From: Candidatus Saccharimonadota bacterium
GTDB lineage: Bacteria; Patescibacteriota; Saccharimonadia; Saccharimonadales; DTSZ01
Length of the DNA: 64,000 nt
Assembly (NCBI GenBank): GCA_012965045.1
Contig: DTSZ01000001.1
Span: 591,629-655,628 of the forward strand
Direction of reading: 5' to 3'
A program made the position numbers and the translations under genes. Shown one piece after another: positions 5,534 through 55,999 of this stretch. Each line of letters begins with the position of its first letter. Position 1 is the first letter of the stretch. Below the pieces are notes generated by a model. That model saw only the letters and a program-made list of their open reading frames with translations. It was not told where the DNA came from and did not search any database.

Positions 5534-5923
5534 TTATTTTCTAGGTTTGGTAATATTCGCTTCCCCGCCATACACTGGCAAAACTACTTTTTGATTTTCG
5601 CCACTTTTAAGTTTTTCTATTCCCTGAGCAAACCAAATGTCACCTGCGGCTGCGACCACTGGAACGTCGAGCGAATAGCTTAGGGTGTTTGCAAGTGTCA
5701 CGCCAATTCTCAACCCAGTAAAACTACCCGGCCCTTCAAACGCGACTATGCCTTCAATTTGGTCAAACTTACTGTTGGCTGCGTCGAACAATTCATCAAG
5801 CTTATAAAAAATAGTGCTCGATAATTGCTTGTGGCCTTCCCATTCTACTTTTTGTATGTCATCGCCGATTTGTAGCCACAGCTCTGCTTGGGGTTTGTCT
5901 GTGCGAATTCCTAAGATATTCAT
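5534..5923 (-). CDS. tsaB: tRNA t6A biosynthesis protein TsaB, short form.
   Basis: GPGSFTGLRIGV motif. Overlaps the tsaE stop by 4 nt. Confidence 0.8.
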   Translation of the reverse strand: MNILGIRTDKPQAELWLQIGDDIQKVEWEGHKQLSSTIFYKLDELFDAANSKFDQIEGIVAFEGPGSFTGLRIGVTLANTLSYSLDVPVVAAAGDIWFAQGIEKLKSGENQKVVLPVYGGEANITKPRK

Positions 5924-35690: not shown

Positions 35691-37046
35691 GTGCCACGGG
35701 CAAAGAAAAAACAACCAACATCGACGACCACTACGAAAACAATTGAACAAGCTAAAAAAGTCTTAGACATAAATTTTAAAGATGGCTACACTATGCCATC
35801 AAAAGTACTCTACCCGCACCAATGGTTATGGGATTCGTGTTTTCATGCAATTGGCCTACGGCACCACCGTCCAGATCGTGCACTGGAAGAAATCAAACTG
35901 TTACTACGGGGCCAATGGCCAAATGGTATGGTGCCGCATATGATTTTTAGTGGCGCCAAGCACGGACATCAACGCTACAATATTTGGAAGTCACATGTCT
36001 GTGACGACTGTGTTGTCGGCCTGAGGACCAGTGCAATCACGCAACCGCCTGTCATTGCTTGGGCGTTCGAAAAGGTAGTAAATAGCCTGCCCAAAAAAGA
36101 TCAAAAAGCAGCTATCGAAAAATACCTGCCGCAGATAATTCGCTATCATCAGTGGCTGTATGCAGACCGTGACCCTGACCAAACAGGTCGCATTGTAATT
36201 ATTCACCCGTGGGAAAGTGGCCTCGACAACAACCCAGCACTAATGGCAGCACTGCGTGAATGTTTCCCTGTGAATACCAGTGAAAAAATATTTTTGACCA
36301 ACCCTTTTGTACGCGGTGTATACCACAAGCTTCGTAAAGACATTCAAGTCACGAGCGCTGCCGAGCGAAGTCGAACTGTTGAAAACTGGATGTTTGCACG
36401 ACTTATTGCCCGGTATCGTCGCAAGCTCTATAAAACCGAAGCCATCTTATATGATAAAAATAGCTTCGTTGTTGAGGATGTTAGCTTTAACGCAATATTT
36501 ATTCGGTCTAATGCCGCTATAAAAACTCTGGCGAAAAAAATAAAACTCACACTGCCAGACGACTTAACTCAAGCAATGGACCGTAGCGACGCAGCGTTTG
36601 CTGATTTCTGGAACGACGACAAACAAGCATATTTATCGCGCAACTGGCACACCAAACAATCAATTCCAATTGAAACGATCGAAGAATTACTGCCACTCAT
36701 AACTTCTATTATCCCCAAATCAAATGCTAAAAAAATTGTCACAAAACTTGAATCAAATAACTTTTTCACACCTAAGCCGGTATCCACAAACAACACAGCG
36801 CGCGACGACTACGACCCTATTCGTTATTGGCAAGGCCCAGTATGGGTAAATATGAACTGGATGATTATCGAAGGACTAAAGAACTACGGCTATACCAAAA
36901 AAGCTAAAGACCTCGCCAATTCAACAATTAAATTAGTCGAAGAAAATGGCATATGGGAGTACTACAATTCGCAGACTGGCATGGGCCACGGAATCAGCAG
37001 TTTTTCCTGGACCGCAGCTTTGTATTTAGACTTAATTAATTCCTAA
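35691..37046 (+). CDS. GH63-like (alpha/alpha)6 glycoside hydrolase of the mannosylglycerate/glucosylglycerate hydrolase type.
   Basis: LYPHQWLWDSCFHAIGL, IIHPWESGLDNNP and YWQGPVWVNMNWMIIEGL. GTG start. Confidence 0.7.
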   Translation: MPRAKKKQPTSTTTTKTIEQAKKVLDINFKDGYTMPSKVLYPHQWLWDSCFHAIGLRHHRPDRALEEIKLLLRGQWPNGMVPHMIFSGAKHGHQRYNIWKSHVCDDCVVGLRTSAITQPPVIAWAFEKVVNSLPKKDQKAAIEKYLPQIIRYHQWLYADRDPDQTGRIVIIHPWESGLDNNPALMAALRECFPVNTSEKIFLTNPFVRGVYHKLRKDIQVTSAAERSRTVENWMFARLIARYRRKLYKTEAILYDKNSFVVEDVSFNAIFIRSNAAIKTLAKKIKLTLPDDLTQAMDRSDAAFADFWNDDKQAYLSRNWHTKQSIPIETIEELLPLITSIIPKSNAKKIVTKLESNNFFTPKPVSTNNTARDDYDPIRYWQGPVWVNMNWMIIEGLKNYGYTKKAKDLANSTIKLVEENGIWEYYNSQTGMGHGISSFSWTAALYLDLINS

Positions 37047-37379
37047 CTCAACTTCTTCCGCTCTAAATTCTACAAGTTCTCGGATGCGATCATCAACATA
37101 CTGACTTCTTTCAAGAAAGTTCATTCCGCCTAAAATTTGGTCACGTTCACTGACATCGCCAGTCAACCCAGCAGCAATGTCGTCCCTAATTGCAGATTCT
37201 CTACAAGCCTTGCGCACTAATACTGGGCAAGTGTCGCATATAGCCTTTGCTATTTCTTCCCTGCTTCGACGTGCATTTATGCCTTCAGGTCTCAAATCGT
37301 CAGGAGGAAAAAATAAGTCACCCTCTCCGACACATGGTTTTGCTGTTAATGACATCTTTTTATCTAAATCTACAAACAC
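37032..37379 (-). CDS. WhiB-like (Wbl) Fe-S transcription factor candidate with a C-terminal extension.
   Basis: KPCVGEGDLFFP ... AKAICDTCPVLVRKAC gives four Cys, the FFP motif and a CxxC-PV pattern. AAGGAG RBS 7 nt before GTG 37379. Confidence 0.55.
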   Translation of the reverse strand: MFVDLDKKMSLTAKPCVGEGDLFFPPDDLRPEGINARRSREEIAKAICDTCPVLVRKACRESAIRDDIAAGLTGDVSERDQILGGMNFLERSQYVDDRIRELVEFRAEEVELGIN

Positions 37380-37475
37380 TGCCTTGCTCCTTTTATATAA
37401 AAACTACTCTTTGCTTTTGTAATCTGTCAAGTTCGTTGTTTATTTAAGTGGCACGAAAATGGACATAGTAGTGTT

Positions 37476-38102
37476 CTATGTATCGTTTATCAACAAGTTA
37501 ATCTGACTACTGTCTGCTGGCATATCCCATCTACTCCACTCATCACGGTATCTCTGAAACTCTTCGTCGGGAACCTTATGTAAATGTTTTGGATTAAAGA
37601 CTCGTTGGAACCAACGGATTCCATTCAAGTGATCGACTTCATGCTGTACGATCCGTGCAACAAATCCACTGAATTTATTTATGACAACTTCACCGTATTC
37701 ATTGTGCCAACGAACCTCTACCGCCTCAGAACGTTTAACAACACCGCCATAGCCTGGTAACGAAAAACACCCTTCTCGATCTTCTGCTTGATTGCTACTA
37801 GCCCAAGTTATTACAGGATTTATCATAAAAATATTATTTGGCGTCGGATTAACAGCTTTTGGGTCTGCATCAATATCAACTAAAATCACCCGAGCGTTCC
37901 AACCAATTTGCGGGGCAGCCAGTCCGACCATAGTTTTTGTGCCGGGTGTTGGGTCTTGTATAACTCCAGCAATTTTTTGCATTTGCAGGAGCGCATTTTT
38001 AAATGCAATCGACTTATAATCAATGATCTCTGCAGTTACTTTTTTCAATAGGGGATTGCTTGGTTCTAAGATACTAAATTTATCTTTTTCCCCATCTTCC
38101 AT
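37476..38102 (-). CDS. def: Peptide deformylase.
   Basis: GLAAPQIG, EGCFSLPG and HEVDHLNG. Confidence 0.92.
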   Translation of the reverse strand: MEDGEKDKFSILEPSNPLLKKVTAEIIDYKSIAFKNALLQMQKIAGVIQDPTPGTKTMVGLAAPQIGWNARVILVDIDADPKAVNPTPNNIFMINPVITWASSNQAEDREGCFSLPGYGGVVKRSEAVEVRWHNEYGEVVINKFSGFVARIVQHEVDHLNGIRWFQRVFNPKHLHKVPDEEFQRYRDEWSRWDMPADSSQINLLINDT

Positions 38103-38125
38103 CTTCTAACTACCAGCTTCTAAAT

Positions 38126-39253
38126 CTACAGCCATTTCTTGCCTTTTTTGGTTCTAAATTCTTCGAGTATTTTCTTTTGTTTTTTGCTCAGTTTGGTTGG
38201 CGTGTCTACAAGTACGCGTACAATGTGGTCGCCACGTGATTTACCGCGTAAACTCGGCACACCTTTGTTGGCAATTTTAAAATCTGTACCACTTTGGGTC
38301 CCAGCAGGAATTTTTAGCTTTTCTTTCCCATCAACGGTTTCTAGTTCAATTTCTGTTCCTAGCGCTGCGTCTACCATTGGCACGTGTTCGTCGCTTAAGA
38401 TTAAATTACCTTCTCTCGTGAAGTGCTTATGTGCTTTAACGCGCACATTTACATATAAGTCGCCAGCGTTTCCGTTTGAGGCAACTTCACCGCGGCCAGT
38501 AAGCCGAATCGTAGCTCCATCATAAATACCAGCAGGGACTTTAAGCGTAGTTTTTTTACTCTGTCGAGTAACACCACTGCCACCACATACGCTACATTTT
38601 TTCTCTGGAATTTTCCCTTCACCCTTACATGTCCGACAGGTTCTGGCTTGCTGAAAATTACCAAGCGGCGTTTGCATTACTTGTACTTCTTGACCGCTCC
38701 CTTTGCAGGTGTCACATGTTTTTACATCGTGACCAGGCTCTGCTTTTGTCCCTTTACAATGCTCACATACATCTAGAAGGCTTAGTTCAACTTCTTTTTC
38801 GGTACCAAAAATTGATTCTTCAAATGTTAACTGGACGTTTGTCTCAACATCGCGGCCACGTTCGGTTTGTGTCCTAGTTCGCCGGCCACCACCGCCGCCA
38901 CCAAAAAATCCTTCAAAAATATCACCAAGTCCAAGGTCGCCTAAGTCAACATGTACTCGCTGGCCAGACCCGCCACCAAACCCACCAAAAATGTCTTCAA
39001 AACCACTAAAACCAGCTCCGCCGCCACCGCTCGCTCCGCCAACACCAGCATGTCCGAACTGGTCGTAGCGTTGGCGCTTGCTTTCATCTTTTAATACTTC
39101 ATAGGCTTCAGAGGCTTCTTTAAATTTAGCCTCGTCACCGCCTTCTTTATCTGGGTGATGCTTAATAGCCAATTTTCTAAAAGCCTTTTTTATCTCGTCT
39201 GCGCTGGCGGATTTACTAACTCCTAAAATTTCGTAGTAATCTCGTTTAGCCAT
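38126..39253 (-). CDS. dnaJ: Chaperone DnaJ.
   Basis: J-domain HPD, G/F region and four CxxCxGxG zinc motifs. Confidence 0.97.
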
Positions 39254-40081
39254 TTAATTTGCCTTTTTGAATGCCTTTATAATCAAATCACTCGGTATTA
39301 ACCGCGTTTCGCTGGCGCTACCTGTCATTACATCGTTAACGCGCTCTTCGTGCGTAAGGTAAATTACCTTTGCGCCATTTTTTTCCGCTGCAAGCATGGC
39401 TGGTTTTAGGTCTTGGTCACTACTCCACAGTACAACAGTATCTACGTTATTGGTTGCTGCCGCTTCCGTCATATCTACCGCTAAGCTAACATCTACACCT
39501 TTTTCGTTAAACGACAGCTCATCCTTTTTAGTAATTGGATTAATACTTGGTCGAATAACTAATTTACCAGCTGCAACAAACTCAACTCCACTATTTGATA
39601 AATAGCCTATCCAGCGTCGTTTATGATCTATCATCTTTAGCGTGCGTTTTTTAAGCTCTGGGTCATCATGTTCTTCGTGTAATTTTGCGCCGTAATACCT
39701 GTCTTCGCGCGGGCCTAGGTCGCCCAACATGTGATTCAGTAACATTTCCATGTCAAACTTCACTAAATCGTCGCGGAATTTTATCAGCTTGGCTTTTCGA
39801 AGCTCGTCAAACAGTTGAAAAAACGTATTTTCACCGTCAATATACACAACTGTTCGGCCACTTTCTGCCTTGGCCGGTGGTGTTGATTGCGCCTTAGTTT
39901 GGGGTTTACGCCTACTCGTAGAATCGTTCTTTTTTGATGCTGGATTTTTTGCGTTATTGCCGCCTGAATTTGATCGGCTAGACGGTTTTTTGCCCGCCTT
40001 GTCTTCTGCCTCATACACATCGTCCAATGCACTCAGCAAGTCTTGTTCTTTTCGTTCTTTAAAACTTAATTTTTTCTTCAT
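39254..40081 (-). CDS. NYN/LabA-like (PIN-like) domain protein with a basic disordered N-terminus.
   Basis: VVYIDGENTF and VDTVVLWSSDQDLKPAMLAAEKNGAKVIYL. Its stop abuts the dnaJ start. Confidence 0.7.
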   Translation of the reverse strand: MKKKLSFKERKEQDLLSALDDVYEAEDKAGKKPSSRSNSGGNNAKNPASKKNDSTSRRKPQTKAQSTPPAKAESGRTVVYIDGENTFFQLFDELRKAKLIKFRDDLVKFDMEMLLNHMLGDLGPREDRYYGAKLHEEHDDPELKKRTLKMIDHKRRWIGYLSNSGVEFVAAGKLVIRPSINPITKKDELSFNEKGVDVSLAVDMTEAAATNNVDTVVLWSSDQDLKPAMLAAEKNGAKVIYLTHEERVNDVMTGSASETRLIPSDLIIKAFKKAN

Positions 40082-40096
40082 TAGCTACAGTCTATC

Positions 40097-40213
40097 TTAC
40101 TTATCGGTAATTTTTTGCTTAATTTCTTCAACATCACTAGCAATTTTCTCTAAATTTGCGTTCATTTTACTTAGTGCTGCTTGTAAATCTTCAACTAATT
40201 CACGTGGGTTCAT
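40097..40213 (-). CDS. Candidate 38-aa coiled-coil peptide (MNPRELVEDLQAALSKMNANLEKIASDVEEIKQKITDK).
   Basis: Hand-found ORF that starts 5 nt after the upstream stop, with AAGGG 10 nt upstream. Below the ORF-track length cutoff. Confidence 0.4.
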   Translation of the reverse strand: MNPRELVEDLQAALSKMNANLEKIASDVEEIKQKITDK

Positions 40214-40218
40214 TGTCT

Positions 40219-40563
40219 CTAACCCTTATCAAAATCTGCTTTGCAGAGTTGGCAATATGATTTCAGTGATCCATACTTAATGAGAGGTGATCTAACTTGG
40301 TCTTTGTCATAACAGGCGATACAAAACCTCAGATTTCCAAAATTTAAATTACCAGTCGCTACTAGCCAAGCCCTGCCGCTGGAGTCAACCTGTAGTTTAC
40401 CTTTTGATGTAATCTTATCAATTTCGTCTTTTAGTTTCTTATTTTCGAGCTGCAAATCAAAGATTTTTTGCTGCGCTTCAAGAATCATATTAAATTCGTC
40501 AATTTTATCTGCAGCGCGTAACGTAGCGCCTGCTTGTTTTAGCCCTTCTAAAACACTAACCAT
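40219..40563 (-). CDS. Coiled-coil protein with a C-terminal CxxC...CxxC zinc ribbon (114 aa).
   Basis: FCIACYDKD...YCQLCKADF. The ATG lies 2 nt after the dnaK stop. Confidence 0.6.
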   Translation of the reverse strand: MVSVLEGLKQAGATLRAADKIDEFNMILEAQQKIFDLQLENKKLKDEIDKITSKGKLQVDSSGRAWLVATGNLNFGNLRFCIACYDKDQVRSPLIKYGSLKSYCQLCKADFDKG

Positions 40564-40565
40564 TG

Positions 40566-42485
40566 CTACTTGTCTTCTCTCTTCTCATTCACAACTTCAC
40601 CCTCTACAGGTTCATCAGACTCTTTGTCGTCTTTCTTGTCGTCGTCACTAGACTCACTACTCTCTTCTCCGTCCTCTGAAGCTGTTTTAGCTGCTTCTTT
40701 ATACATCTTCGCACCAATCGGAGATACCTTATCAAGTAGTGTCTTAGCAGCTTCTTCGAGCTTCTCTTTATCCGTTTCTTCTTGAGATTTCTTAGCTTCC
40801 TCAATTGCTTCTTCAACTGTCTTCTTATCTTCGTCGGACAATTTGTCGCCGTTTTCGTCGATCAGTTTCTGGCCAGTATATATAGCGTTTTCTAATGCGT
40901 TTTTAGCTTCTACTGCTTCGCGTTTTTTCTTGTCTTCTTCAGCGTGAGCTTCGGCATCTTTTTGAGCTTTTTCAATCTCGTCTTTATCTAAGTTGCCGCT
41001 GTCTTTAATAGTAATCGACTGTTCTTTGCCAGTACCTTTGTCTTTGGCCGTAACATTCAAAATTCCGTTAGCGTCAAGATTAAAAGTTACTTCAACTTGC
41101 GGAACACCGCGTGGCGCTGGGGCGATGCCGTCTAAAACAAATCTACCGAGTGATTTGTTATCGGCTACCATTTCTCGTTCACCTTGAACAACATGAACTT
41201 CAACACTTGGCTGGTTGTCTGCTGCTGTTGAAAAAATTTCGCTCTTACTAGTCGGGATAGTAGTGTTTCGTTCAATCAACTTGGTTGTAACGCCACCTAA
41301 GGTTTCTATACCAAGGCTTAGTGGAGTGACGTCTAGAAGCAGCACGTCTTTAACGTCACCTGCTAGTACGCCACCTTGAATCGCAGCACCTACAGCTACA
41401 ACTTCGTCAGGGTTTACACCTTTAAGCGGTTCTTTGCCAAAGATCTCCTTAACTTTAGCTTGCACTGCTGGCATTCGGGTCATACCACCAACCAAAATGA
41501 CTTCGTCGATTTCGCTGGCTTTAAGCTTGGCGTCTTTTAACGCGTCGAGACACGGCTTAGCAGTTTTTTCGATGAGCTTACTTACTAGCTGCTCAAGCTT
41601 GCTACGAGTAAGTTCGTATTCGAAGTTAAGTGGTCCTTCTGCTAAGAACGGTAAGTTAATTTCACTGCTTTGTGCACTCGAAAGCTCAATTTTAGCTTTT
41701 TCAGCAGCCTCTTTAAGCCGCTGCATTGCTTGTGCGTCACCTTTAAGGTCTTTGTCGTGGTCTTTTTTAATTACGTCAAGTAAGTGATTAACAATGACAA
41801 GGTCGAAGTCTTCACCACCAAGGTGAGTATCGCCGTTGGTAGACTTAACTTCAAACACGCCGTCACCTAGCTCCAAGATTGATACGTCAAATGTTCCACC
41901 GCCAAGGTCAAACACGGCAATTTTTTCATCTTTTTGCTTATCAAGACCGTAGGCTAAGGCTGCTGCGGTTGGTTCGTTAATGATTCGCTTAACTTCCAAG
42001 CCAGCAATTTTACCAGCGTCTTTTGTTGCCTGACGCTGGCTGTCGTCAAAGTACGCTGGAACCGTAATTACAGCTTGAGTAACTTTGTCACCTAAATATG
42101 CCTCTGCGTCAGCCTTGAGCTTGCTCAAAATCATTGCTGAAATTTCTTCTGGACTTTGTTCTTTGCCGTCGAGCATTACTCTAGGTTGGTCGTTTTTACC
42201 CTTAACAATCTTATACGGCATAATGTCGATGTCGCGTTGCACTTCTTCGTCTTTAAACTTACGACCAATAAGTCGCTTAACACCAAAAACAGTGTTTTCT
42301 GGGTTGGTGACCCGTTGTCGGTAAGCAACCTTACCAACTAAGCGATTTTTATCTTTACCAATAGCTACAACGCTTGGTGTAGTTCTATCACCTTCGCTGT
42401 TAGCGATAATTTGCGGGCTACCGCCTTCCATAACAGCCATAGCGCTGTTGGTTGTTCCTAAATCTATTCCAATTATCTTTGACAC
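40566..42485 (-). CDS. dnaK: Chaperone DnaK (Hsp70).
   Basis: [18 protein letters not shown] and full-length Hsp70 collinearity. Confidence 0.98.
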
Positions 42486-42791
42486 TTTTTCCTCCTAAGT
42501 TTTGCAACGTAGCTCTCTGCCCGCGAACAAATTTCGCTGCTCCAGAGCTACTTAAAGCGCATTACTTCGTCAAAACCTACATCACTCGTTCGAAGTACTA
42601 TTTGTACATCTCACTCGTTTTTTGGCTTTTCCTTGTACTGCATCTTTATGCAAAGCTTAGGAGCTAAAAAGCTAGTTACCTGAAAATCTTCTTGCTTGAA
42701 TTTATTAAATTACTTTTTACGAATCACTAGTTACCAAATACGAACTACTGATTCCTAGCAGTTACCTGCCACCAGTGCTAGTTTAGCAGAA

Positions 42792-42818
42792 TTAGCACTC
42801 ACGGTGCAAGAGTGCTAG
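42792..42818. promoter_or_regulatory. CIRCE operator (TTAGCACTC-N9-GAGTGCTAG) upstream of dnaK.
   Basis: Matches the HrcA operator consensus TTAGCACTC-N9-GAGTGCTAA at 17 of 18 positions. Confidence 0.85.
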
Positions 42819-42828
42819 TGCCTAAAAA

Positions 42829-43599
42829 TCACCGCTCTAAGTAACCTTCCATGACATGTGACCTGCCTATACTTAGTTCAATTCCATCCAGACATTTATT
42901 CAGCTCTTCCGCTTGGTCAGCTACGGACGGATTGCCAAGCACATGCAGTTTATACGCCTCCTCAAGCACTTTTAATGATTCTGTGTACTTTTTACGCAAA
43001 TATGCTCGTTTTGTTTTTGATTTCACGGAGTGTAGCCGCTTAGTGTTTTTATATGTATCGATTATTTTAAGGGCTACGGCTTTACCAAACAGCTCTGGGT
43101 CATACTCTTGCTCTGACACATCACCTATAAATTTTTGCCGCAAATTATCAGCATAAAACCGTATTTTATTTTCTTCTGTTGGTTCAATGTCATCTGGAAA
43201 CGGTCTATTGCTTACCATTTGCACAAACAATGCAACTTTTTCAGATTTAGTTATTTTTTCTAGGGCTTCAGTTACGCTCACATCGCCGCTGCCGTTACCC
43301 GACCCTACAAATTGCAATAGTTGTTCAGGGACATCTTCAAACGAATCATGATATAAGCCAGCGATTATAAGGTCAGCATGCTGGTCTGACGCAAATCCCA
43401 CGTGCACCAGTCCTTCTGCTACTTCAAGCAAGTGCAGGTCATAGCTAACGCTGGCATACAGCTTGTCTCTGTGCAGGTCAGAAGCGATATTATGAGCGGA
43501 TCTTATGCGCTCCGCTTCATCAGCACTAAAACTATTCTCAATAATTCCAAAAAACTGGTCTTTTAAATCTTCTACTTCAGGATAGTGCATGTTTTCCAT
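42829..43599 (-). CDS. HD-domain protein with a SpoT/Mesh1-like (p)ppGpp-hydrolase-type motif.
   Basis: HLLEVAEGL...AGLYHDSFEDVPE fits the H...HD..ED pattern of the RelA/SpoT hydrolase domain. Confidence 0.5.
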   Translation of the reverse strand: MENMHYPEVEDLKDQFFGIIENSFSADEAERIRSAHNIASDLHRDKLYASVSYDLHLLEVAEGLVHVGFASDQHADLIIAGLYHDSFEDVPEQLLQFVGSGNGSGDVSVTEALEKITKSEKVALFVQMVSNRPFPDDIEPTEENKIRFYADNLRQKFIGDVSEQEYDPELFGKAVALKIIDTYKNTKRLHSVKSKTKRAYLRKKYTESLKVLEEAYKLHVLGNPSVADQAEELNKCLDGIELSIGRSHVMEGYLER

Positions 43600-43642
43600 G
43601 TCTTATTATGGCATGAAAAAGCAATAACTACGAAGACGGCTG

Positions 43643-44137
43643 TTATTTGTTAATTACTTTAACCATGGCATGGCGAACCACTTCACCATTTAACGAATAG
43701 CCAGTTTGCAGCACCTCTTTAACAAACTCCGTCTCACCATCACCTTCAACGGCCACGGCTTCGTGGTATTCAGGATTGAACAGCTCGTCTTCTACCCCAA
43801 TTTTTTCGACTCCTAAGTTTTGGAGTTCTTTTTCTAGTTGTTGTGCAACCTTCGAAACACCTTGGGCCCAGTCATTATTTTGTAAATCCTCGGGTAAATG
43901 AGCCAGCGCACGGTGAACATTATCCAGTGTTGGCAATAAACTCAGTAAAATCTGTTTTGCTCCAAATGCAATTGAACTAGCGCGGTCTTCTTCGGCGCGT
44001 CGCTTAAAGTTTACAAAGTCAGCTTGGGTGCGCTTTAAGTCACCGGTCAGTGTCTCTACTTCTTGCTCCAAATCGGCAATTTTCTGATCTTTTTTGTTTG
44101 GTTTTTTAGCATTTGAATCTTCTGATTTATTCTTCAT
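43643..44137 (-). CDS. grpE: Nucleotide exchange factor GrpE.
   Basis: The coiled-coil N-terminus and C-terminal pattern (FNPEYHEAV...G..VRHAMV) match GrpE. Confidence 0.9.
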   Translation of the reverse strand: MKNKSEDSNAKKPNKKDQKIADLEQEVETLTGDLKRTQADFVNFKRRAEEDRASSIAFGAKQILLSLLPTLDNVHRALAHLPEDLQNNDWAQGVSKVAQQLEKELQNLGVEKIGVEDELFNPEYHEAVAVEGDGETEFVKEVLQTGYSLNGEVVRHAMVKVINK

Positions 44138-44164
44138 GTTTACCCTTTCAACATTTAGCTGTAT

Positions 44165-44875
44165 TTACAGCACACCTTCCAGTGCTCTGCCTGCGTGGCT
44201 AACGAGCGCCATAGTTTCTTTGTAACTTTGTCTGGTTGGACCCAACACCCCTATGTAGCTATTGTCTGAATACGGCGACCTGAACCTGCTAATGACCAGC
44301 GTACATTCGCTGTTTTTGCCAATTGGGTTCTCTTGGCCAATAAACACACTGAGTGGTTTATTTGGGGCGGCTTCACGTAGCCATGGCTCTAAATTGTCGA
44401 GTAGCTGCGCTACTTGTCGAACACCGCCATGAGCAAACTCAGGCTGTCCAAATAGTTGGCTTAAGCCGCTCATGTACAACGTGCCACCGATTGTTGCTAG
44501 GCCCAGATTATCTGTCATTTCAACCAAGCTGTCTACAGCAGATTTTATAGCTTGCTTTGGTTCGCCAGCATGTTCAACACGCCGATCTAAAACTTGGGTA
44601 CTGCGTGTACTAGCAGCTTGCTCCAGCTTGCCGTGACTGCGAAGATCTTGTAGCTCATTAACATACAGTCTGTAGCCCTTGTCGGTTGGAATTCTGCCGG
44701 CACTGGTGTGGGGGTGTGTAATAAAACCGAGTTTTTCTAGCACTGCCATATCAGCGCGAATTGTCGCAGAACTAACACCAAACACTTTCGCTAAGGTAAC
44801 CGACCCAACAGGTGAAGCTACTTCAGCATACTGCTCTACAATTGCTTCCAATATCTTTTTTTGTCGGGGTGTCAT
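44165..44875 (-). CDS. hrcA: Heat-inducible repressor HrcA, short form.
   Basis: [50 protein letters not shown]. Start set at ATG 44875 so that the CIRCE lies upstream. Confidence 0.85.
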
Positions 44876-44895
44876 AGTAGCTAAATTATAGATTT

Positions 44896-44922
44896 TTAGC
44901 ACTCAAATGTCCAGAGTGCTAA
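44896..44922. promoter_or_regulatory. Perfect CIRCE operator (TTAGCACTC-N9-GAGTGCTAA) upstream of hrcA.
   Basis: 18 of 18 match to the consensus. Confidence 0.9.
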
Positions 44923-44950
44923 ATTACTACGTAACCAGCGCTTTTAGCGG

Positions 44951-45679
44951 CTATGCAGTGCGATTATTCAGGTGTGCTTTTAAGTCGTTCAGTAACCGTT
45001 CGGCCTTTTTCTGGCTCCGTTCTTTTCGTTCATCTGGGTCAAGTTTGCCAGTTATTATGTCATCTACGTATCGGGCTGTGTCGGCTAGGTCATCGTTAAC
45101 CACAAAAATATACCCGCCACTGGTTAAAACATGTTCTATTTCCTCGACAGCAGTCTGTAGGCGATCCATTGTTTCGTCTTCACTTAAGTCTCCGCGCCGT
45201 TGCATGCGTTGCTGCCAGGTGTCAAAGTCGGGCGGTAAGACAAAAAAGCACAATAGCTCGGGGTAGAAAGCTCTGATCGCTTCCACACCTTGAACATCAA
45301 TTTCATTAATCGGTTTTTTATTAGATCGAATAGCTCGCTCTAATTCGTCGACGCTAACGCCAGACACTTGCCGGTTATGTATGACTTTTGCTTCCAGCAT
45401 TTCACCGCGGTCGAGCTTGTTAACCATTTCTGCTTCCTTCACAAACCAATATTCGCGCCCGTCCTGCTCCATAACACCATTATTGGCGCGTGGCTGTCGT
45501 GTTGTGTGTGACACCACAGACATATAGTTGCCGGTATTAATCAGTTCAGTTATTAAGGTGTTTTTACCGGCGGCAGTTATACCTACCATAACTACAAAAC
45601 CAGACGATCGCACGGTGTCTTGTGCGCTTTTTGGCATTGTGTAGTTAGTTACAGCTGTCTTTAGCTCGGTAGAAATCAT
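44951..45679 (-). CDS. Guanylate-kinase-like P-loop kinase.
   Basis: GITAAGKNTL P-loop and SHTTRQPR...GREYWFV...EMLEAKV, which fit the GMP kinase pattern. Confidence 0.6.
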   Translation of the reverse strand: MISTELKTAVTNYTMPKSAQDTVRSSGFVVMVGITAAGKNTLITELINTGNYMSVVSHTTRQPRANNGVMEQDGREYWFVKEAEMVNKLDRGEMLEAKVIHNRQVSGVSVDELERAIRSNKKPINEIDVQGVEAIRAFYPELLCFFVLPPDFDTWQQRMQRRGDLSEDETMDRLQTAVEEIEHVLTSGGYIFVVNDDLADTARYVDDIITGKLDPDERKERSQKKAERLLNDLKAHLNNRTA

Positions 45680-45970
45680 TTAATTTAATCTATCATATAA
45701 CGAGCCAGTTAGTATTAAGGCGCCGAGTCCGACTCCAAGTAGTATTAGCGGGTTGTCTCTAAAAAGGTCCACCTTATCAATCAGACCTTCAAAACCGTAC
45801 AGCGTTGCAACAAGACCAAACACCCCAAGTAACGTAAAGACTATCGGGAATCGATCAAAGGCTGATTCTTTTGTGCCTTTTATTTTTTCGGAAACAGCTT
45901 TTTCGGTGTCTAATAGCGCTTTTAAAAATCTACTTACTCTTTTAATCATAGTTTTAGTAGTATATACCAC
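45680..45970 (-). CDS. Small two-TM membrane protein, paralog of 46572-46838.
   Basis: Aligns with the 88-aa paralog (F(D/E)R(F/Y)P(I/L)(V/L)FT, ATLYG/ATFYG, TGSLYDRL/TGKLYEKL). Confidence 0.55.
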   Translation of the reverse strand: MVYTTKTMIKRVSRFLKALLDTEKAVSEKIKGTKESAFDRFPIVFTLLGVFGLVATLYGFEGLIDKVDLFRDNPLILLGVGLGALILTGSLYDRLN

Positions 45971-45977
45971 TAAAACA

Positions 45978-46451
45978 CTAGGCGACTCTGTCTTCTGGGC
46001 TGTTTTCTACTAATCGTTTTAATTGAATAAGGTTTTTCTTAACGAATCGTCTAATCGTTAAAGACAGTACCGGCATCAAGAAGAACCCCACTAGATTAGC
46101 TGGTTCAATATTTTGGGTAAAAGTCAGTCGCGTAGTGTTCGGGGTTTTCCCTTCCTGGAGTTCGTAATGGCCCTTGCCAGTTATTGGGCCTTTTGAAGGT
46201 GCAGTAATCCACGATACTTTAGTAGGGGCAGTGTAGGTTATTTCGCTTACGATTTCGTCTTTGAAAAATAAAAAACGCATTAATGTTCGGTACGTGGCTT
46301 TTGCGTTATTGTTTTCGTTGTCTTCAAGTTTAACTATTTCACGAATCCATTTGTTTCTCTTTTGCTGCAAATTATCGTCACTAGTAACAACTCGCCAGAC
46401 TTCTTCGAGTGGCCGGGTTACTGTAACAGATGTTTTTACAGTGCGTGGCAT
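45978..46451 (-). CDS. SRPBCC/START-like protein.
   Basis: The N-terminal pattern (V..S..V.RPLEEVWRVV) is typical of the polyketide_cyc2/SRPBCC fold. Weak call. Confidence 0.5.
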   Translation of the reverse strand: MPRTVKTSVTVTRPLEEVWRVVTSDDNLQQKRNKWIREIVKLEDNENNNAKATYRTLMRFLFFKDEIVSEITYTAPTKVSWITAPSKGPITGKGHYELQEGKTPNTTRLTFTQNIEPANLVGFFLMPVLSLTIRRFVKKNLIQLKRLVENSPEDRVA

Positions 46452-53266: not shown

Positions 53267-53596
53267 TCAACCCCCCTTACGAGGAAAGCGGTCAATGTCG
53301 CGGTGCATCATTTTAGCTATGCCCTGCTCAATTCCTTTACTTAAGTCAATATTTTGTGAGTTTGCTAAACAAATAAGGGCAATTAAAATATCTCCTAATT
53401 CCTCTTGTAGATGAGAAATATCCTCACCGGGTTTTGGTGGCTTTGGGCCAAATTCTCTATTTAATATCCGGCCGACCTCTCCAAGCTCTTCAATTAAACG
53501 AGCAAGGTTTTCGTGTGGTGACCAGTATTTTGGTTCGTATTGTTGTTCTTCTAAAAAAGTATCAATTATCGACTGGTAGTCGCTTAAAGTTTTCAT
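53267..53596 (-). CDS. MazG-like nucleotide pyrophosphohydrolase.
   Basis: LIEELGEVGR...LQEELGDILIALICLAN, the paired EExxE/D motifs. Confidence 0.8.
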   Translation of the reverse strand: MKTLSDYQSIIDTFLEEQQYEPKYWSPHENLARLIEELGEVGRILNREFGPKPPKPGEDISHLQEELGDILIALICLANSQNIDLSKGIEQGIAKMMHRDIDRFPRKGG

Positions 53597-53613
53597 GGTG
53601 TCTCCTTATTTTA

Positions 53614-54087
53614 TTATGTATGGGTAAATAGTTGACGCTTTTCATCTTCGCTTAGGTAGGTTTTACCGCCGTTAAAATAGCAGTGCAGCCCAACTTTACT
53701 CGGTTCAAAATGTGGTTCTGGTACTTCGTGCCATGGCAACCACCAGTAACCTTCGTTTTTATCTGGTTCACGGTTTTGCAGGGTGCCGTTAAAGTGTATT
53801 GTGTGAAGAATTATCGAGATCGTATGTATTCCGGCCGCTTCAACTAGACTCAAGTTATTCACCACGCCCATAACGCGCCAAGCTTTTTCGTCTACCCTTA
53901 GACCGGCTTCTTCATACAATTCTCTGCTGGCAGCTTTTTCAAACTCTTCGCCATAATCAAGCTTGCCGCCCGGTATTGAATACTGGCCGGCAGCATGGCT
54001 GCCTATTCTACGACCTATTAAAACGGCGTCGTCGTCAATACTTTCAACAATCAAGCCCACCCCAACAATTGGAGGGGTTTCGCTCAT
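53614..54087 (-). CDS. Nudix hydrolase.
   Basis: Nudix box GGKLDYGEEFEKAASRELYEEAGL. Confidence 0.85.
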   Translation of the reverse strand: MSETPPIVGVGLIVESIDDDAVLIGRRIGSHAAGQYSIPGGKLDYGEEFEKAASRELYEEAGLRVDEKAWRVMGVVNNLSLVEAAGIHTISIILHTIHFNGTLQNREPDKNEGYWWLPWHEVPEPHFEPSKVGLHCYFNGGKTYLSEDEKRQLFTHT

Positions 54088-54090
54088 ACG

Positions 54091-55968
54091 CTAAATCGCA
54101 GCAGTTTTCGGCATCTTTGTGCCTTCAAAGACTTCTTCTACCTGTTTTTCGTCAACAGTTTCGATATCGAGCAGTTTGTCGGCTAAGGCTTTAAGGTACT
54201 TTTTATTGGCTTTAATTACTTCCTCGGCACGGTGAGCAGCTTCGGCAATAAGACCTTCTACCTGGAAGTCGATTTCTCTAGCAGTTTCTTCACTATACGG
54301 ACGGTCATGCACCATGCGGTCAAACATCATGCCGCTCTGTTGGTCGGCGGTAAAGACCATGTTACGCAGTTTCTTAGTTCCCATTCCCTGCTCGATCACC
54401 ATTTCACGAGCTAGTTCTGCAGCCTTTTTAAGGTCGCTGCCAGCACCAGTCGTAACGTTGTCGACGCCGTAAATGATCTTTTCTGCAATACGTCCGCCCA
54501 GTATTCGAGCCAGTACATCTTTGTATTCATTGATTGAATGGTAAGACTTGTCTTCTGGTGGGATAGCCCATGTAACACCACCTGTACCACCACGAGGAAT
54601 AATAGTCACCTTGTGAATAGGGTCGCTCAGCGGCAGTACGTGGCCGACCAAAGCGTGCCCCGCTTCGTGATAGGCAGTTAGTTCTTTGTCTTTTTCGTTC
54701 ATAATTTTGTTTTTGCGCTCTGGACCAATTGCTACACGCTCAAAAGCATTAGTTACGTCATCATTACTAATTGTTTTGCTGTTACGACGGGCAGCTAAAA
54801 TAGCTGACTCGTTAGCAATGTTCATCAGATCAGCTCCAGATGAACCAGCTGTTTTAGCAGCAAGAGCATCAAGATTTACTGATTTGTCGGTTGGCTTCTT
54901 TTTAAAGTGAACGTTTAGAATTGCTTCGCGGTCTTTTCTATCTGGTAGTGGTATGGTTACTCGTCGGTCAAAACGGCCCGGTCGCAATAGAGCTGGGTCA
55001 AGAACGTCAGGACGGTTAGTAGCAGCGATAACAATTACATTCGTGCCTTGTTCAAAGCCATCCATTTCTACAAGAATCTGGTTGAGGGTTTGCTCTCGTT
55101 CGTCATGTCCACCACCCATTCCAGAGCCTCGTCGACGACCGACTGCATCAATTTCGTCAATAAAGATAATGCAGGGGCTATTCTTCTTAGCCTTAGCAAA
55201 CAAGTCACGTACTCGGCTGGCGCCTACACCAACAAACATTTCTACAAATTCTGAGCCACTGATACTAAAGAACGGCACGCCTGCCTCACCAGCTACGGCT
55301 CGAGCCATTAAGGTTTTACCAGTACCCGGGCTACCAACCAGCAATACTCCTTTAGGAATTTTTGCGCCAACTTCGCGGAACTTTTTAGGGAATTTTAAAA
55401 ACTCTACGACTTCTTGCAGCTCTTCTTTAGACTCTTCGTTACCTGCAACTTCACTAAAAGTAACTTTTTCTTTGGTGTCACCAAAAACTTTTGCACGTGA
55501 CTTACCAAAGTTCATAGCTTGGTTGCCTTGGCCCTGAGCTTGTTTCATGAAATAGAACAAAATAAACACAAATAGTACCAGCGGACCGAAGGCAAACAGT
55601 ACTTGCGTCCACACCTGGCCAGAATCATTTACGTCTTCGCTTTTTACCGAAACAGTTCCTTCTTCGATACCACGTTCACGTAGTTCGGTAGAAACTGACA
55701 AGCCATCCTCTTTTTGAGAAACAAAATCCGGCTCTACACTTCCATCTACATCGGCGACTTCTTCGTCGTATAGCTCTAGGTCGTTACCTTTAACGATAAT
55801 GGTATTTACTTCGTTGTTGCGGACTTTATTAACAACCTCGGTAAATGATATTTCAGGAATATTAGACGGTTGATTAAATACGGCCACCACCAGTAAACCG
55901 ATTACTATCAGTAGTGCTGCGAAGCCGAAATTCTTCTGCTGTTTTTTGTTATTCTTCATTTTATCCAT
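54091..55968 (-). CDS. ftsH: ATP-dependent zinc metalloprotease FtsH.
   Basis: [20 protein letters not shown], the SRH, and HEAGHAL zinc site. Confidence 0.98.
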
Positions 55969-55999
55969 AATATGGTTTGTTCCTCTCTGTAGTGTCTCA

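What the first reader, a model, noticed from the sequence alone, without database searches (positions are those of the whole stretch)
39254..43599. Non-canonical passengers embedded in the hrcA-grpE-dnaK-dnaJ operon
Four extra genes sit in the classical heat-shock operon with near-zero spacers.
1. A 256-aa HD-domain protein with a SpoT/Mesh1-like H...HD..ED motif lies between grpE and dnaK.
2. After dnaK come a 114-aa coiled-coil protein with a CxxC...CxxC zinc ribbon (ATG 2 nt after the dnaK stop), a hand-found 38-aa coiled-coil ORF (5 nt later), and a 275-aa NYN/LabA-like putative RNase whose stop abuts the dnaJ start.
3. Tight coupling suggests co-expression with the chaperones. This could link the heat-shock response to RNA cleavage and alarmone turnover.
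Basis: partly seen in the sequence, partly recalled or inferred. Interest (0 to 1): 0.5.

Follow-up and report, generated by a model that had tools for sequence, protein, structure and literature searches.

The report
Heat-shock operon with conserved nuclease passenger
In a tiny symbiotic bacterium (Saccharibacteria), the heat-shock chaperone genes are interleaved with a predicted RNA-cutting enzyme and a predicted alarmone-type hydrolase; relatives keep both in the same slots, so they probably belong to the heat-shock programme, although their function is untested.

Summary
All four extra ORFs exist at the stated coordinates on the minus strand. The locus is two tandem HrcA/CIRCE-controlled units, not one tight operon:
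- Unit 1: hrcA-grpE-HD.
- Unit 2: dnaK-Zn114-cc38-NYN-dnaJ, possibly continuing into def. A conserved CIRCE promoter lies in the 343-nt HD-dnaK spacer.

**HD (supported through its family).** The protein itself falls below Pfam cut-offs. A profile of its family hits Rel/SpoT hydrolase domains, small alarmone hydrolases and MESH1 (E 2e-26 to 7e-19). Four of its five closest homologues also follow grpE. Sequence identity is only 21-29% where DnaK is 87-94%.

**Small ORFs.** cc38 is a real micro-gene, found in three genomes. Zn114 has one known homologue, also directly after dnaK.

**Function.** Probably a heat-induced RNase and a nucleotide 3'-(pyro)phosphohydrolase. This is inferred, not shown. 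I rate it a new variant of a known kind, of moderate interest.

The parts
44896..44922 (.). CIRCE operator 1 (TTAGCACTC-N9-GAGTGCTAA, perfect match), upstream of hrcA
   Evidence: 0 mismatches; 3 matches in the window against 0.01 expected by chance.
44885..44913 (-). sigma-70-type promoter TGGACA-17-TATAAT; its -35 hexamer lies in the CIRCE loop
   Evidence: 11 of 12 matches, the best site in the region. The same layout occurs in relatives.
44165..44875 (-). hrcA, short form of 236 aa. The true start is the ATG at 44875, not the GTG at 44902, which lies inside the CIRCE
   Evidence: Pfam HrcA 64.2 bits. TIGR00331 scores 179 bits, below its cut-off of 197. Relatives encode 235-248 aa.
43643..44137 (-). 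grpE
   Evidence: Pfam GrpE 131.5 bits.
42829..43599 (-). Stand-alone RelA/SpoT-type HD (HD_4-like) hydrolase, 256 aa. Positionally conserved after grpE and hyper-divergent
   Evidence: - The protein itself: Pfam HD 16.6 and HD_4 14.7 bits, both below cut-off.
- phmmer against PDB: small alarmone hydrolase 7qoc, E 1e-3.
- Family profile A2 against PDB: Rel 2.4e-26, SAH 7qoe 2e-22, MESH1 7e-20.
- 32 of 34 family members hit HD_4.
- Homologues follow grpE in L081, L171, L173 and L174.
- 21-29% identity where DnaK is 87-94%.
42792..42818 (.). CIRCE operator 2 (1 mismatch), starting 10 nt after the HD stop codon
   Evidence: The region is conserved at DNA level in L081, L083, L084, L092 and L093.
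42780..42809 (-). dnaK promoter: -35 TTGCAC in the CIRCE loop, an 18-nt spacer, and an extended -10 TGcTAAACT
   Evidence: Read from the sequence. The hexamers are conserved in an alignment of 7 loci. It falls below the threshold of the consensus scan.
42755..42781 (.). Second, degenerate CIRCE-like inverted repeat (5 mismatches), overlapping the -10 and the start region
   Evidence: Alignment A4. The equivalent site in L084, L092, L094, L095 and L130 has at most 3 mismatches.
42486..42773 (-). Long 5'UTR of dnaK (about 288 nt). A large hairpin pairs 42650-42671 with the SD region 42485-42505
   Evidence: -90.5 kcal/mol against shuffles at -66.9 +/- 4.5, z = -5.2; the SD stays paired from 20 to 60 C; the stretch is unique to this genome; in relatives CIRCE lies 21-132 nt before dnaK.
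40566..42485 (-). dnaK (GTG start, SD AGGAGG)
   Evidence: Pfam HSP70 866 bits. 76% identity to Saccharibacteria MAGs.
40219..40563 (-). Zn114: helical N-terminal half plus a C-terminal CxxC-x19-CxxC. Near-orphan
   Evidence: No Pfam, NCBIfam, PADLOC or PDB match. The single homologue, P0028 (50% identity), lies in dnaK-Zn105-dnaJ and also starts 2 nt after the dnaK stop.
40097..40213 (-). cc38: conserved 38-aa micro-protein gene
   Evidence: Present in L081 at 5612-5728 (61% identity) and in L173 at 3191-3307 (82%), with the same length. Synonymous changes fall in the conserved N-terminus.
39254..40081 (-). LabA-like NYN (PIN-like) nuclease. It has a conserved N-terminal helix motif (SFKERKEQDLLSALDDVY), a disordered linker, and the catalytic domain at 76-275
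   Evidence: - Pfam NYN 53.7 bits against a cut-off of 24.2.
- Invariant D82, N85, D197, D222, D224.
- AF2 model with domain pLDDT above 90.
- The dnaK/dnaJ-linked genes form a clade.
38126..39253 (-). dnaJ; its start codon abuts the NYN stop (TAAATG)
   Evidence: Pfam DnaJ, DnaJ_CXXCXGXG and DnaJ_C. Spacer of 0 nt.
37476..38102 (-). def (peptide deformylase), 23 nt after dnaJ. Possibly the last gene of unit 2 in this genome only
   Evidence: Pfam Pep_deformylase 117.5 bits. No terminator-like site between dnaJ and def. Not syntenic in relatives.

Best explanation
The locus is the HrcA/CIRCE heat-shock regulon core of a Saccharibacterium (TM7), organised as two tandem repressor-controlled units.
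- Unit 1: hrcA-grpE-HD.
- Unit 2: dnaK-Zn114-cc38-NYN-dnaJ(-def).

**Shown**
- The genes, their spacers and their motifs.
- CIRCE operators that overlap promoters in front of both units, conserved in relatives.
- A monophyletic NYN sub-family found beside dnaK/dnaJ, usually directly upstream of dnaJ and often abutting or overlapping its start.
- An HD_4-type hydrolase kept directly after grpE in five genomes.
- A conserved 38-aa gene.
- Unrelated lineage-specific ORFans in the remaining slots (Zn114 here).

**Inferred**
- When HrcA is inactivated by proteotoxic stress, the NYN protein is made together with DnaK and DnaJ. Its four-Asp metal site is intact and its fold matches the MARF1-type single-strand RNA endonuclease.
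- It then cuts RNA (mRNA, rRNA or tRNA). This lowers translational load or clears damaged RNA while the chaperones refold proteins.
- The HD protein is a Mn2+-dependent 3'-(pyro)phosphohydrolase of the small-alarmone-hydrolase/MESH1 kind. It would remove (p)ppGpp or (p)ppApp, or a related 3'-phosphorylated nucleotide, during the same response.
- cc38 and Zn114 are small accessory proteins of unknown role.
For: **Regulation**
- CIRCE 1 is a perfect match and CIRCE 2 has 1 mismatch; 0.01 matches are expected by chance.
- The hrcA promoter overlaps CIRCE 1.
- The dnaK promoter/operator block is conserved in 7 loci.
- Among NYN-bearing relatives, CIRCE lies upstream of dnaK in 9 of 12 loci. L099 has a perfect CIRCE directly in front of an NYN-dnaJ bicistron.
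- Across Saccharibacteria, 36 of 45 dnaK genes and 19 of 19 hrcA genes have a CIRCE upstream.

**NYN**
- Domain, fold and conserved residues.
- All six homologues looked up lie between dnaK and dnaJ.
- 19 linked loci were found; 18 sit in one clade with no unlinked member, and 50 more distant paralogues are unlinked.

**HD**
- Family and homology.
- The nearly invariant residues are kept in the window protein: H43, Y53, H56, H84, D85, E88, D89, N131, K178, D181, N185, K204, Y205.
- Positional conservation after grpE.

**Small gene and composition**
- cc38 is conserved.
- GC content of the passengers resembles that of their neighbours.

**Concept from the literature**
- In B. subtilis, heat survival uses (p)ppGpp (PMC7098656).
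- It also uses RNase-Y-driven rRNA degradation (PMC13230545).
- Most Saccharibacteria are reported able to make (p)ppGpp (PMC6031116).
Against: - There is no expression or biochemical data; every function is inferred.
- The NYN and HD genes are absent from all 46 other Saccharibacteria dnaK loci examined. They are therefore not needed for the heat-shock response in the class as a whole.
- The grpE-dnaK and dnaK-dnaJ gaps are generally variable and hold unrelated genes. Operon membership alone is therefore weak evidence of a functional link.
- No bacterial PF01936 protein has a demonstrated nuclease role (PMC5499597).
- The HD protein is below the Pfam cut-offs, has Tyr at the position of the Rel 'GQxR' arginine, and evolves very fast.
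- MESH1-type enzymes also act on NADPH and CoA (abstracts listed).
- The predicted dnaK 5'UTR hairpin hides the SD at all temperatures tested. This is unexplained.
Confidence: 0.5

Rival explanations
1. Neutral hitch-hiking. The gaps between the chaperone genes are permissive insertion slots in Saccharibacteria. NYN, HD, cc38 and Zn114 are simply genes that landed there. They are kept by operon inertia and have no functional link to heat shock.
For: - In 46 GTDB Saccharibacteria loci the grpE-dnaK gap ranges from 18 nt to 7.7 kb and the dnaK-dnaJ gap from 395 nt to 8.8 kb. They hold unrelated genes: a membrane protein, an acetate-kinase-like gene, a helicase-like gene and others.
- Within the NYN clade the other slot occupants are unique ORFans.
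- Zn114 has one homologue.
- In L173 the Zn114 slot holds an unrelated 112-aa ORF, although DnaK is 94% identical.
Against: - NYN has stayed next to dnaJ across lineages whose DnaK has diverged to about 61-67% identity. Start and stop codons often abut or overlap, while everything around it turns over.
- In L099, NYN-dnaJ alone carries its own CIRCE.
- HD keeps its catalytic residues and its slot although the rest of the protein has diverged to 21-29% identity.
Confidence: 0.25
2. Autoregulatory processing. The NYN RNase acts mainly on its own polycistronic transcript. It would cut, for example, in the structured dnaK leader or between dnaK and dnaJ, and so set the DnaK:DnaJ ratio and transcript stability. 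This resembles the known post-transcriptional processing of the B. subtilis dnaK operon.
For: - NYN sits between the highly expressed dnaK and the low-level dnaJ and is coupled to dnaJ.
- The 288-nt leader is predicted to hide the SD in a -20 kcal/mol helix that would need opening or cleavage.
- Post-transcriptional regulation of the B. subtilis dnaK operon is on record (Homuth et al. 1999, cited in PMC2952846).
Against: - The long leader is unique to this genome, whereas NYN is clade-wide.
- In L099, NYN-dnaJ is separate from dnaK.
- No cleavage site is known.
Confidence: 0.12
3. Toxin-antitoxin or anti-phage module. The PIN-like NYN nuclease is a toxin or effector, and the small upstream ORFs (cc38, Zn114) are its antitoxin or sensor. 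The module merely sits inside the operon.
For: - NYN gives weak PADLOC hits: HEC-09 at E 2.8e-9 and 'NYN LabA-like' at E 7.7e-7.
- A small ORF lies directly upstream.
- L083 carries a GIY-YIG gene plus two NYN genes.
- HD hits a phage phosphohydrolase family, phrog_990, at E 1e-8.
- The very fast evolution of HD would fit an arms race.
Against: - cc38 accompanies NYN in only 3 of about 20 linked loci, and Zn114 in only 1.
- NYN is inherited vertically at a fixed position.
- No mobile-element genes or compositional anomaly were found.
- The PADLOC hits are domain-level only.
Confidence: 0.07

Closest known systems
HrcA/CIRCE-controlled hrcA-grpE-dnaK-dnaJ operon of Firmicutes, in particular the heptacistronic B. 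subtilis dnaK operon (hrcA-grpE-dnaK-dnaJ-yqeT/prmA-yqeU/rsmE-yqeV/mtaB)
   Same: - It has an HrcA repressor gene, CIRCE inverted repeats overlapping sigma-70-type promoters, and the same chaperone gene order.
- Non-chaperone genes that act on the translation or RNA machinery are co-transcribed.
- A second promoter lies inside the cluster (PMC2952846).
   Different: - Here the extra genes lie between the chaperone genes, not after dnaJ.
- They are a NYN nuclease, an HD_4 hydrolase and micro-proteins, not methyltransferases.
- The internal promoter is itself CIRCE-controlled and sits before dnaK.
- HrcA is a short form of about 236 aa.
LabA-like NYN domain proteins (Pfam PF01936 / COG1432; structure 2qip; the eukaryotic MARF1 NYN endoribonuclease, 5yaa)
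   Different: - Bacterial members have no established function, and no heat-shock link is mentioned in the family survey (PMC5499597).
- This sub-family is defined by its position next to dnaJ.
- In part of the clade it also has an N-terminal helix motif plus a disordered linker.
- It has no OST-HTH/LOTUS domain.
Small alarmone hydrolases and MESH1 (single-domain RelA/SpoT-type HD hydrolases; PDB 7qoc, 7qoe, 3nr1, 5vxa)
   Same: It is a stand-alone HD_4-type domain. It has the H...HD...ED...K..D...N residues, and its family gives profile E-values of 2e-22 to 7e-19.
   Different: - It is about 60 residues longer, with a C-terminal helical extension.
- The protein itself falls below the Pfam cut-offs.
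- Tyr replaces the Arg of the Rel 'GQxR' motif.
- It is encoded after grpE under HrcA control, not next to a toxic alarmone synthetase.
- It is extremely divergent between close relatives.
Heat-stress control of translation capacity in B. subtilis by (p)ppGpp and by the RNase Y/Y-complex
   Same: Conceptually it is the same pairing: an alarmone pathway plus an endoribonuclease acting during heat stress (PMC7098656, PMC13230545).
   Different: - The proteins are unrelated (Rel and RNase Y there, a NYN and a SAH-like hydrolase here).
- In B. subtilis these factors are not encoded in the chaperone operon.
- The parallel is an analogy, not a tested mechanism.

Membership tests
NYN domain, LabA-like (PF01936 / COG1432) | Match to the Pfam NYN model above its gathering score | tested here: met
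   53.7 bits against a cut-off of 24.2, E 4.1e-14, residues 76-251.
NYN domain, LabA-like (PF01936 / COG1432) | PIN-like alpha/beta fold shared with solved NYN structures | tested here: met
NYN domain, LabA-like (PF01936 / COG1432) | Four conserved acidic residues for metal binding | tested here: met
   D82, D197, D222 and D224 are invariant in 25 homologues, as are N85, E84 and E193. The requirement is as stated in PMC5499597.
NYN domain, LabA-like (PF01936 / COG1432) | Metal-dependent ribonuclease activity | not testable with these tools
   This needs purified protein. No bacterial PF01936 member had been assayed at the time of the family survey (PMC5499597).
RelA/SpoT-type HD hydrolase (Pfam HD_4; small alarmone hydrolase / MESH1) | Match of the protein itself to Pfam HD_4 or HD above the gathering score | tested here: not met
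   HD_4 scores 14.7 bits against a cut-off of 27.2; HD scores 16.6 against 22.
RelA/SpoT-type HD hydrolase (Pfam HD_4; small alarmone hydrolase / MESH1) | Homology to solved Rel/SpoT hydrolase domains, SAH and MESH1 | tested here: met
   - Single sequence against PDB: 7qoc E 1e-3, Rel 6s2t E 3e-3.
- Profile of 34 family members: Rel 2.4e-26, SAH 7qoe 2e-22, MESH1 3nr1 7e-20.
- 32 of 34 members hit HD_4 at E<0.01.
- The link from the window protein to its family is significant against 1.8 billion proteins, E 5e-11.
RelA/SpoT-type HD hydrolase (Pfam HD_4; small alarmone hydrolase / MESH1) | Metal and catalytic residues: H, HD, ED, and K..D...N | tested here: met
   H56, H84-D85, E88-D89, K178, D181 and N185 are present, and they are invariant or nearly so in the family. 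In the profile alignment K..D...N aligns with the Rel 'KLADRLHN' motif.
RelA/SpoT-type HD hydrolase (Pfam HD_4; small alarmone hydrolase / MESH1) | Arginine of the Rel 'GQxR' motif before PY..H (its role in substrate binding is from my own knowledge) | tested here: not met
   The window protein has Y48 at this position, and L081 also has Tyr (alignments). The substrate may differ.
RelA/SpoT-type HD hydrolase (Pfam HD_4; small alarmone hydrolase / MESH1) | Hydrolysis of (p)ppGpp or (p)ppApp | not testable with these tools
   This needs an enzyme assay. The single-sequence AF2 model was too poor (pLDDT 48.8) for any structural argument.
HrcA/CIRCE regulon | CIRCE inverted repeat TTAGCACTC-N9-GAGTGCTAA in the promoter region | tested here: met
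   The site has 0 mismatches upstream of hrcA and 1 mismatch upstream of dnaK; 0.01 matches are expected by chance. The -35 hexamers lie in the CIRCE loops.
HrcA/CIRCE regulon | The cognate hrcA gene is present | tested here: met
   Pfam HrcA 64.2 bits and HrcA_DNA-bdg 30.7 bits. It is a short form; TIGR00331 scores 179 bits, below its cut-off of 197.
HrcA/CIRCE regulon | Heat-inducible, HrcA-dependent transcription of the passenger genes | not testable with these tools
   There is only indirect support: no terminator-like site inside unit 2, spacers of 0-15 nt, and a CIRCE directly before NYN-dnaJ in L099.
Type II toxin-antitoxin or defence module with a PIN-like nuclease | A small partner gene consistently adjacent to the nuclease gene | tested here: not met
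   Among the loci held, HMM searches found cc38 only in L081 and tblastn added L173. Zn114 was found only in L090, and that locus lacks NYN.
Type II toxin-antitoxin or defence module with a PIN-like nuclease | Match to a known defence-system model | tested here: inconclusive
   There are only domain-level PADLOC hits for NYN (HEC-09 E 2.8e-9; NYN E 7.7e-7) and none for the other three proteins.
DksA/TraR-type or DNL-type (Hep1/Zim17) zinc-finger proteins, considered for Zn114 | Match to the corresponding Pfam zinc-finger models | tested here: not met
   No such family appears up to E = 1, and there is no PDB relative. Any resemblance (coiled coil plus C4 motif; an Hsp70 partner) is a lead from memory only.

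The most novel reading that the evidence does not exclude
The dnaJ-coupled NYN protein could be a chaperone-guided ribonuclease. DnaJ/DnaK would recruit it, perhaps through its conserved N-terminal helix (SFKERKEQDLLSALDDVY), to ribosomes or mRNAs that are producing misfolded chains. It would then cut the RNA. This would be a bacterial counterpart of co-translational quality-control decay, and the first physiological role for bacterial LabA-like NYN proteins. The hyper-divergent SAH-like hydrolase in unit 1 would reset the alarmone signal in the same programme.
Probability: 0.08. Interest if true: 0.8.

Novelty: new variant of a known kind. Interest (0 to 1): 0.45.

Why it matters
- **A testable role for an uncharacterised family.** Bacterial LabA-like NYN proteins are a large family (thousands of sequences) with no established function. 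This sub-family is locked next to dnaJ under the heat-shock repressor, which gives a concrete hypothesis: a stress-induced RNase.
- **RNA decay in reduced genomes.** Saccharibacteria have tiny genomes and poorly understood RNA decay and stress signalling. An HrcA regulon that carries a nuclease, a SAH-like hydrolase and, in a third unit, NUDIX and MazG hydrolases suggests that nucleotide and RNA turnover is wired directly into their proteotoxic-stress response.
- **A parallel in B. subtilis.** This matches recent findings there that (p)ppGpp and RNase Y are needed to survive heat.
- **A reusable method.** The locus shows that positional conservation can reveal orthologues that sequence searches almost miss: HD is 21-29% identical where DnaK is about 90%.

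Tried and rejected
- **HD structure.** The single-sequence AlphaFold model was too poor (pLDDT 48.8), so no fold search was run on it.
- **NYN against PDB by sequence.** Neither the single sequence nor the profile found anything. Only structure comparison worked.
- **Rfam.** Nothing was found in 37000-46000 at E<=1, and only three tRNAs in the whole window.
- **GTDB genome scan with DnaK.** It returned 46 Saccharibacteria loci, none with any passenger. This was useful as a negative control but missed the relevant clade. The clade came from protein look-ups and the metagenome scan.
- **Zn114 as a DksA/TraR-like or Hep1/Zim17-like zinc finger.** There is no family or PDB support, so I dropped it.
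- **RNA thermometer in the dnaK leader.** The SD is predicted to stay paired from 20 to 60 C, so a simple melting thermometer is unlikely.
- **Leader as a repeat, mobile element or gene remnant.** There is no second copy in the window or in the loci held. None of the relatives' slot ORFs matches it.
- **Other slot ORFs of relatives** (109, 124, 136, 138, 83, 210, 88 and 112 aa). Seven of the eight were compared; they are unrelated to each other and to the window genes. The 138-aa ORF after NYN recurs in L171 and was read by eye only.
- **Taxonomy of the HD family.** Cluster look-up returned almost no names.
- **Literature.** No paper holds 'NYN domain' together with dnaK and dnaJ. Nothing relevant was found on hrcA in Saccharibacteria.

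Full report
**Observation.**
The window comes from a Saccharibacteria (TM7) genome. Its DnaK is at most 76% identical to GTDB Saccharibacteria MAGs. The exact proteins are on record from a 929,678-bp contig (WGS JYMV01) and from NCBI MAG records, where the NYN gene is already named 'NYN domain-containing protein' and the others 'hypothetical'.

The minus strand carries these genes:

| Gene | Coordinates | Note |
|---|---|---|
| hrcA | 44165-44875 | short form, 236 aa |
| grpE | 43643-44137 | |
| HD-like ORF | 42829-43599 | 256 aa |
| dnaK | 40566-42485 | |
| Zn114 | 40219-40563 | 114 aa |
| cc38 | 40097-40213 | 38 aa |
| NYN | 39254-40081 | 275 aa |
| dnaJ | 38126-39253 | |

The spacers, measured, are:

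| Junction | Spacer (nt) |
|---|---|
| grpE->HD | 43 |
| HD->dnaK | 343 |
| dnaK->Zn114 | 2 |
| Zn114->cc38 | 5 |
| cc38->NYN | 15 |
| NYN->dnaJ | 0 |
| dnaJ->def | 23 |

The claim of near-zero spacers fails around the HD gene.

**Regulatory architecture.**
The CIRCE consensus occurs three times in the window, against 0.01 expected by chance.
- A perfect copy at 44896-44922 overlaps the best promoter of the region, TGGACA-17-TATAAT, in front of hrcA.
- A one-mismatch copy at 42792-42818 starts 10 nt after the HD stop.
- A one-mismatch copy at 56005-56031 lies 36 nt before ftsH.

The block downstream of HD reads as follows: CIRCE with TTGCAC in its loop, an 18-nt spacer, an extended -10 (TGcTAAACT), then a second degenerate CIRCE. 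This block is conserved at DNA level in six related loci.

Among NYN-bearing relatives, a CIRCE precedes dnaK in 9 of 12 loci where the region is visible. Across 46 GTDB Saccharibacteria loci, 36 of 45 dnaK genes and 19 of 19 hrcA genes have one.

The locus is therefore two tandem HrcA-controlled units: hrcA-grpE-HD and dnaK-Zn114-cc38-NYN-dnaJ. The second may extend into def, because no terminator-like site follows dnaJ.

**NYN.**
- The Pfam NYN score is well above its cut-off: 53.7 against 24.2 bits.
- In an alignment of 25 homologues, D82, N85, E193-K194-G195, D197, S220, D222 and D224 are invariant.
- The AlphaFold model built on that alignment is confident in the domain.
- Residues 1-30 form a helix with a motif conserved in part of the clade. 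Residues 31-72 are disordered.

All six homologues I looked up lie between dnaK and dnaJ. A metagenome scan added more. In total, 19 distinct loci have this NYN next to dnaK/dnaJ, usually directly upstream of dnaJ.

In a neighbour-joining tree, 18 of the 19 form one clade that has no unlinked member. Fifty more distant paralogues are not linked.

L099 has a perfect CIRCE in front of an NYN-dnaJ bicistron whose stop and start overlap. None of the 80 loci from the DnaK-based genome scan has an NYN gene.

The NYN-dnaJ pair is thus the conserved core of the finding.

**HD protein.**
On its own the protein is below the Pfam cut-offs (HD 16.6 bits, HD_4 14.7 bits). It has one near-identical entry in the word-indexed database.

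An exhaustive HMMER search of 1.8 billion representatives found 33 relatives besides its own entry, with E down to 5e-11. Their alignment shows invariant or nearly invariant H43, Y53, H56, H84, D85, E88, D89, N131, K178, D181, N185, K204 and Y205. All are present in the window protein.

The family profile hits these solved structures:

| Target | E-value |
|---|---|
| Rel/SpoT hydrolase domains | 2.4e-26 |
| Small alarmone hydrolase 7qoe | 2e-22 |
| Small alarmone hydrolase 7qoc | 6.5e-19 |
| MESH1 | 7e-20 |

Thirty-two of 34 members hit HD_4. The SpoT/Mesh1-like reading is therefore supported at the family level.

Two caveats apply. Tyr replaces the Arg of the Rel 'GQxR' motif. MESH1-type enzymes also act on NADPH and CoA (abstracts).

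Four of the five closest homologues occupy the same slot directly after grpE: L081, L171, L173 and L174. The fifth, and a more distant member, lie elsewhere.

These positional orthologues are only 21-29% identical. In the same genome pairs the neighbouring proteins are far more conserved:

| Protein | Pairwise identity (%) |
|---|---|
| HD | 21-29 |
| DnaK | 87-94 |
| DnaJ | 74-86 |
| HrcA | 76-88 |
| NYN | 66-78 |
| GrpE | 54-61 |

**Small ORFs and the variable slots.**
cc38 is conserved in L081 (61% identity) and L173 (82%), with the same length and position. Synonymous substitutions occur across its invariant N-terminus. It is a genuine micro-protein gene.

Zn114 has no family, PDB or defence-model match. 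Its single homologue is 50% identical and lies in dnaK-Zn105-dnaJ, also 2 nt after the dnaK stop.

In other members of the clade the same slots hold unrelated ORFans. In other Saccharibacteria the gaps hold quite different genes. GC content gives no sign of recent foreign origin.

**Mechanism.**
*Shown:* the gene content, the operators and promoters, and the conservation of position.

*Inferred:* release of HrcA repression co-produces the NYN enzyme with DnaK and DnaJ, with NYN translationally coupled to dnaJ, and the HD enzyme with GrpE.
- The most likely role for NYN is metal-dependent RNA cleavage during proteotoxic stress. This would lower translational load or remove damaged RNA.
- The most likely role for HD is 3'-(pyro)phosphohydrolysis of an alarmone or a related nucleotide.

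B. subtilis offers a conceptual parallel. There (p)ppGpp (PMC7098656) and RNase-Y-driven rRNA degradation (PMC13230545) are both needed under heat. Most Saccharibacteria are reported able to make (p)ppGpp (PMC6031116).

The rivals are neutral hitch-hiking in permissive slots, autoregulatory processing of the operon transcript, and a toxin-antitoxin or defence module. I rank them in that order, for the reasons given in their entries.

**Comparison and novelty.**
Passenger genes in a dnaK operon are known. B. subtilis carries prmA, rsmE and mtaB after dnaJ and has an internal promoter (PMC2952846). The HrcA/CIRCE system itself is classical.

What appears new:
- A NYN nuclease sub-family defined by its place next to dnaJ.
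- A SAH-like hydrolase fixed after grpE but diverging very fast.
- A conserved micro-gene.

The PIN-superfamily survey records no function and no chaperone link for bacterial PF01936 proteins (PMC5499597). No paper in the library combines 'NYN domain' with dnaK and dnaJ.

I rate it a new variant of a known kind. It is moderately interesting and rests on comparative evidence only.

Noticed in passing
window 42485-42773 (minus strand): The dnaK leader is about 288 nt long, whereas in relatives CIRCE lies 21-132 nt before dnaK. It is predicted to fold far better than shuffles (-90.5 against -66.9 kcal/mol, z = -5.2). A 21-nt anti-SD stretch (42650-42671) pairs with the SD region (42485-42505) in a duplex of -20 kcal/mol, and the SD stays paired from 20 to 60 C. 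There is no Rfam match, and the stretch is unique to this genome.
   Followed up: partly
window 53267-56031 (minus strand): A third CIRCE (56005-56031, 1 mismatch) lies 36 nt upstream of ftsH (54091-55968). Tightly spaced NUDIX (53614-54087) and MazG-like (53267-53596) genes follow. A third HrcA-type unit therefore again carries nucleotide pyrophosphohydrolase passengers.
   Followed up: partly
window 42829-43599; L081 2799-3560; L171 6001-6846; L173 149-856; L174 1271-2002: The HD gene keeps its slot after grpE but is only 21-29% identical between genomes whose DnaK is 87-94% identical. The catalytic residues are retained. The cause could be relaxed constraint, diversifying selection or replacement by homologues; this is unresolved.
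   Followed up: partly
window 44875-44922: hrcA encodes a short, 236-aa HrcA, as in all relatives (235-248 aa). It looks nearly leaderless: the -10 TATAAT ends at 44885 and the ATG is at 44875. The mechanical ORF start (GTG at 44902) lies inside the CIRCE and is probably wrong.
   Followed up: partly
window 37032-38102 (minus strand): Peptide deformylase (def) starts 23 nt after the dnaJ stop with no terminator-like site between them. A WhiB-like gene follows 96 nt later. This adjacency is not seen in relatives, where GH130 genes on the opposite strand follow dnaJ.
   Followed up: no
window 39857-40081 (NYN residues 1-75): The NYN protein has an N-terminal extension. It consists of a helix with the motif SFKERKEQDLLSALDDVY, conserved in about half of the sub-family, and then a low-complexity linker of variable length. 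It could be an interaction handle.
   Followed up: no
L099 613-2573; L098 1144-1170: In L099 a perfect CIRCE, with TAGACA in its loop, precedes an NYN-dnaJ bicistron that is separate from dnaK. A leader of about 200 nt lies between them, and a small membrane-protein gene lies upstream. In L098 a CIRCE lies between NYN and dnaJ.
   Followed up: partly
L083 7690-9352; L125 7455-8594; L107 3204-4315: L083 has dnaK-GIY-YIG-NYN-NYN-dnaJ. GIY-YIG ORFs also lie just upstream of unlinked NYN paralogues in L125 and L107. This hints at a recurrent GIY-YIG/NYN pairing elsewhere.
   Followed up: no
L001, L013, L020, L031, L032 (dnaK-dnaJ gaps): In other Saccharibacteria that lack NYN, a multi-pass membrane protein of about 200 aa with conserved cysteines recurs between dnaK and dnaJ in five loci. 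NUDIX-like and other genes recur in a few more. I did not test the family of the membrane protein.
   Followed up: no
L081 6573-6989; L171 9903-10319: A 138-aa predicted membrane protein sits between NYN and dnaJ in two relatives but is absent from the window. It is another clade-restricted passenger.
   Followed up: no
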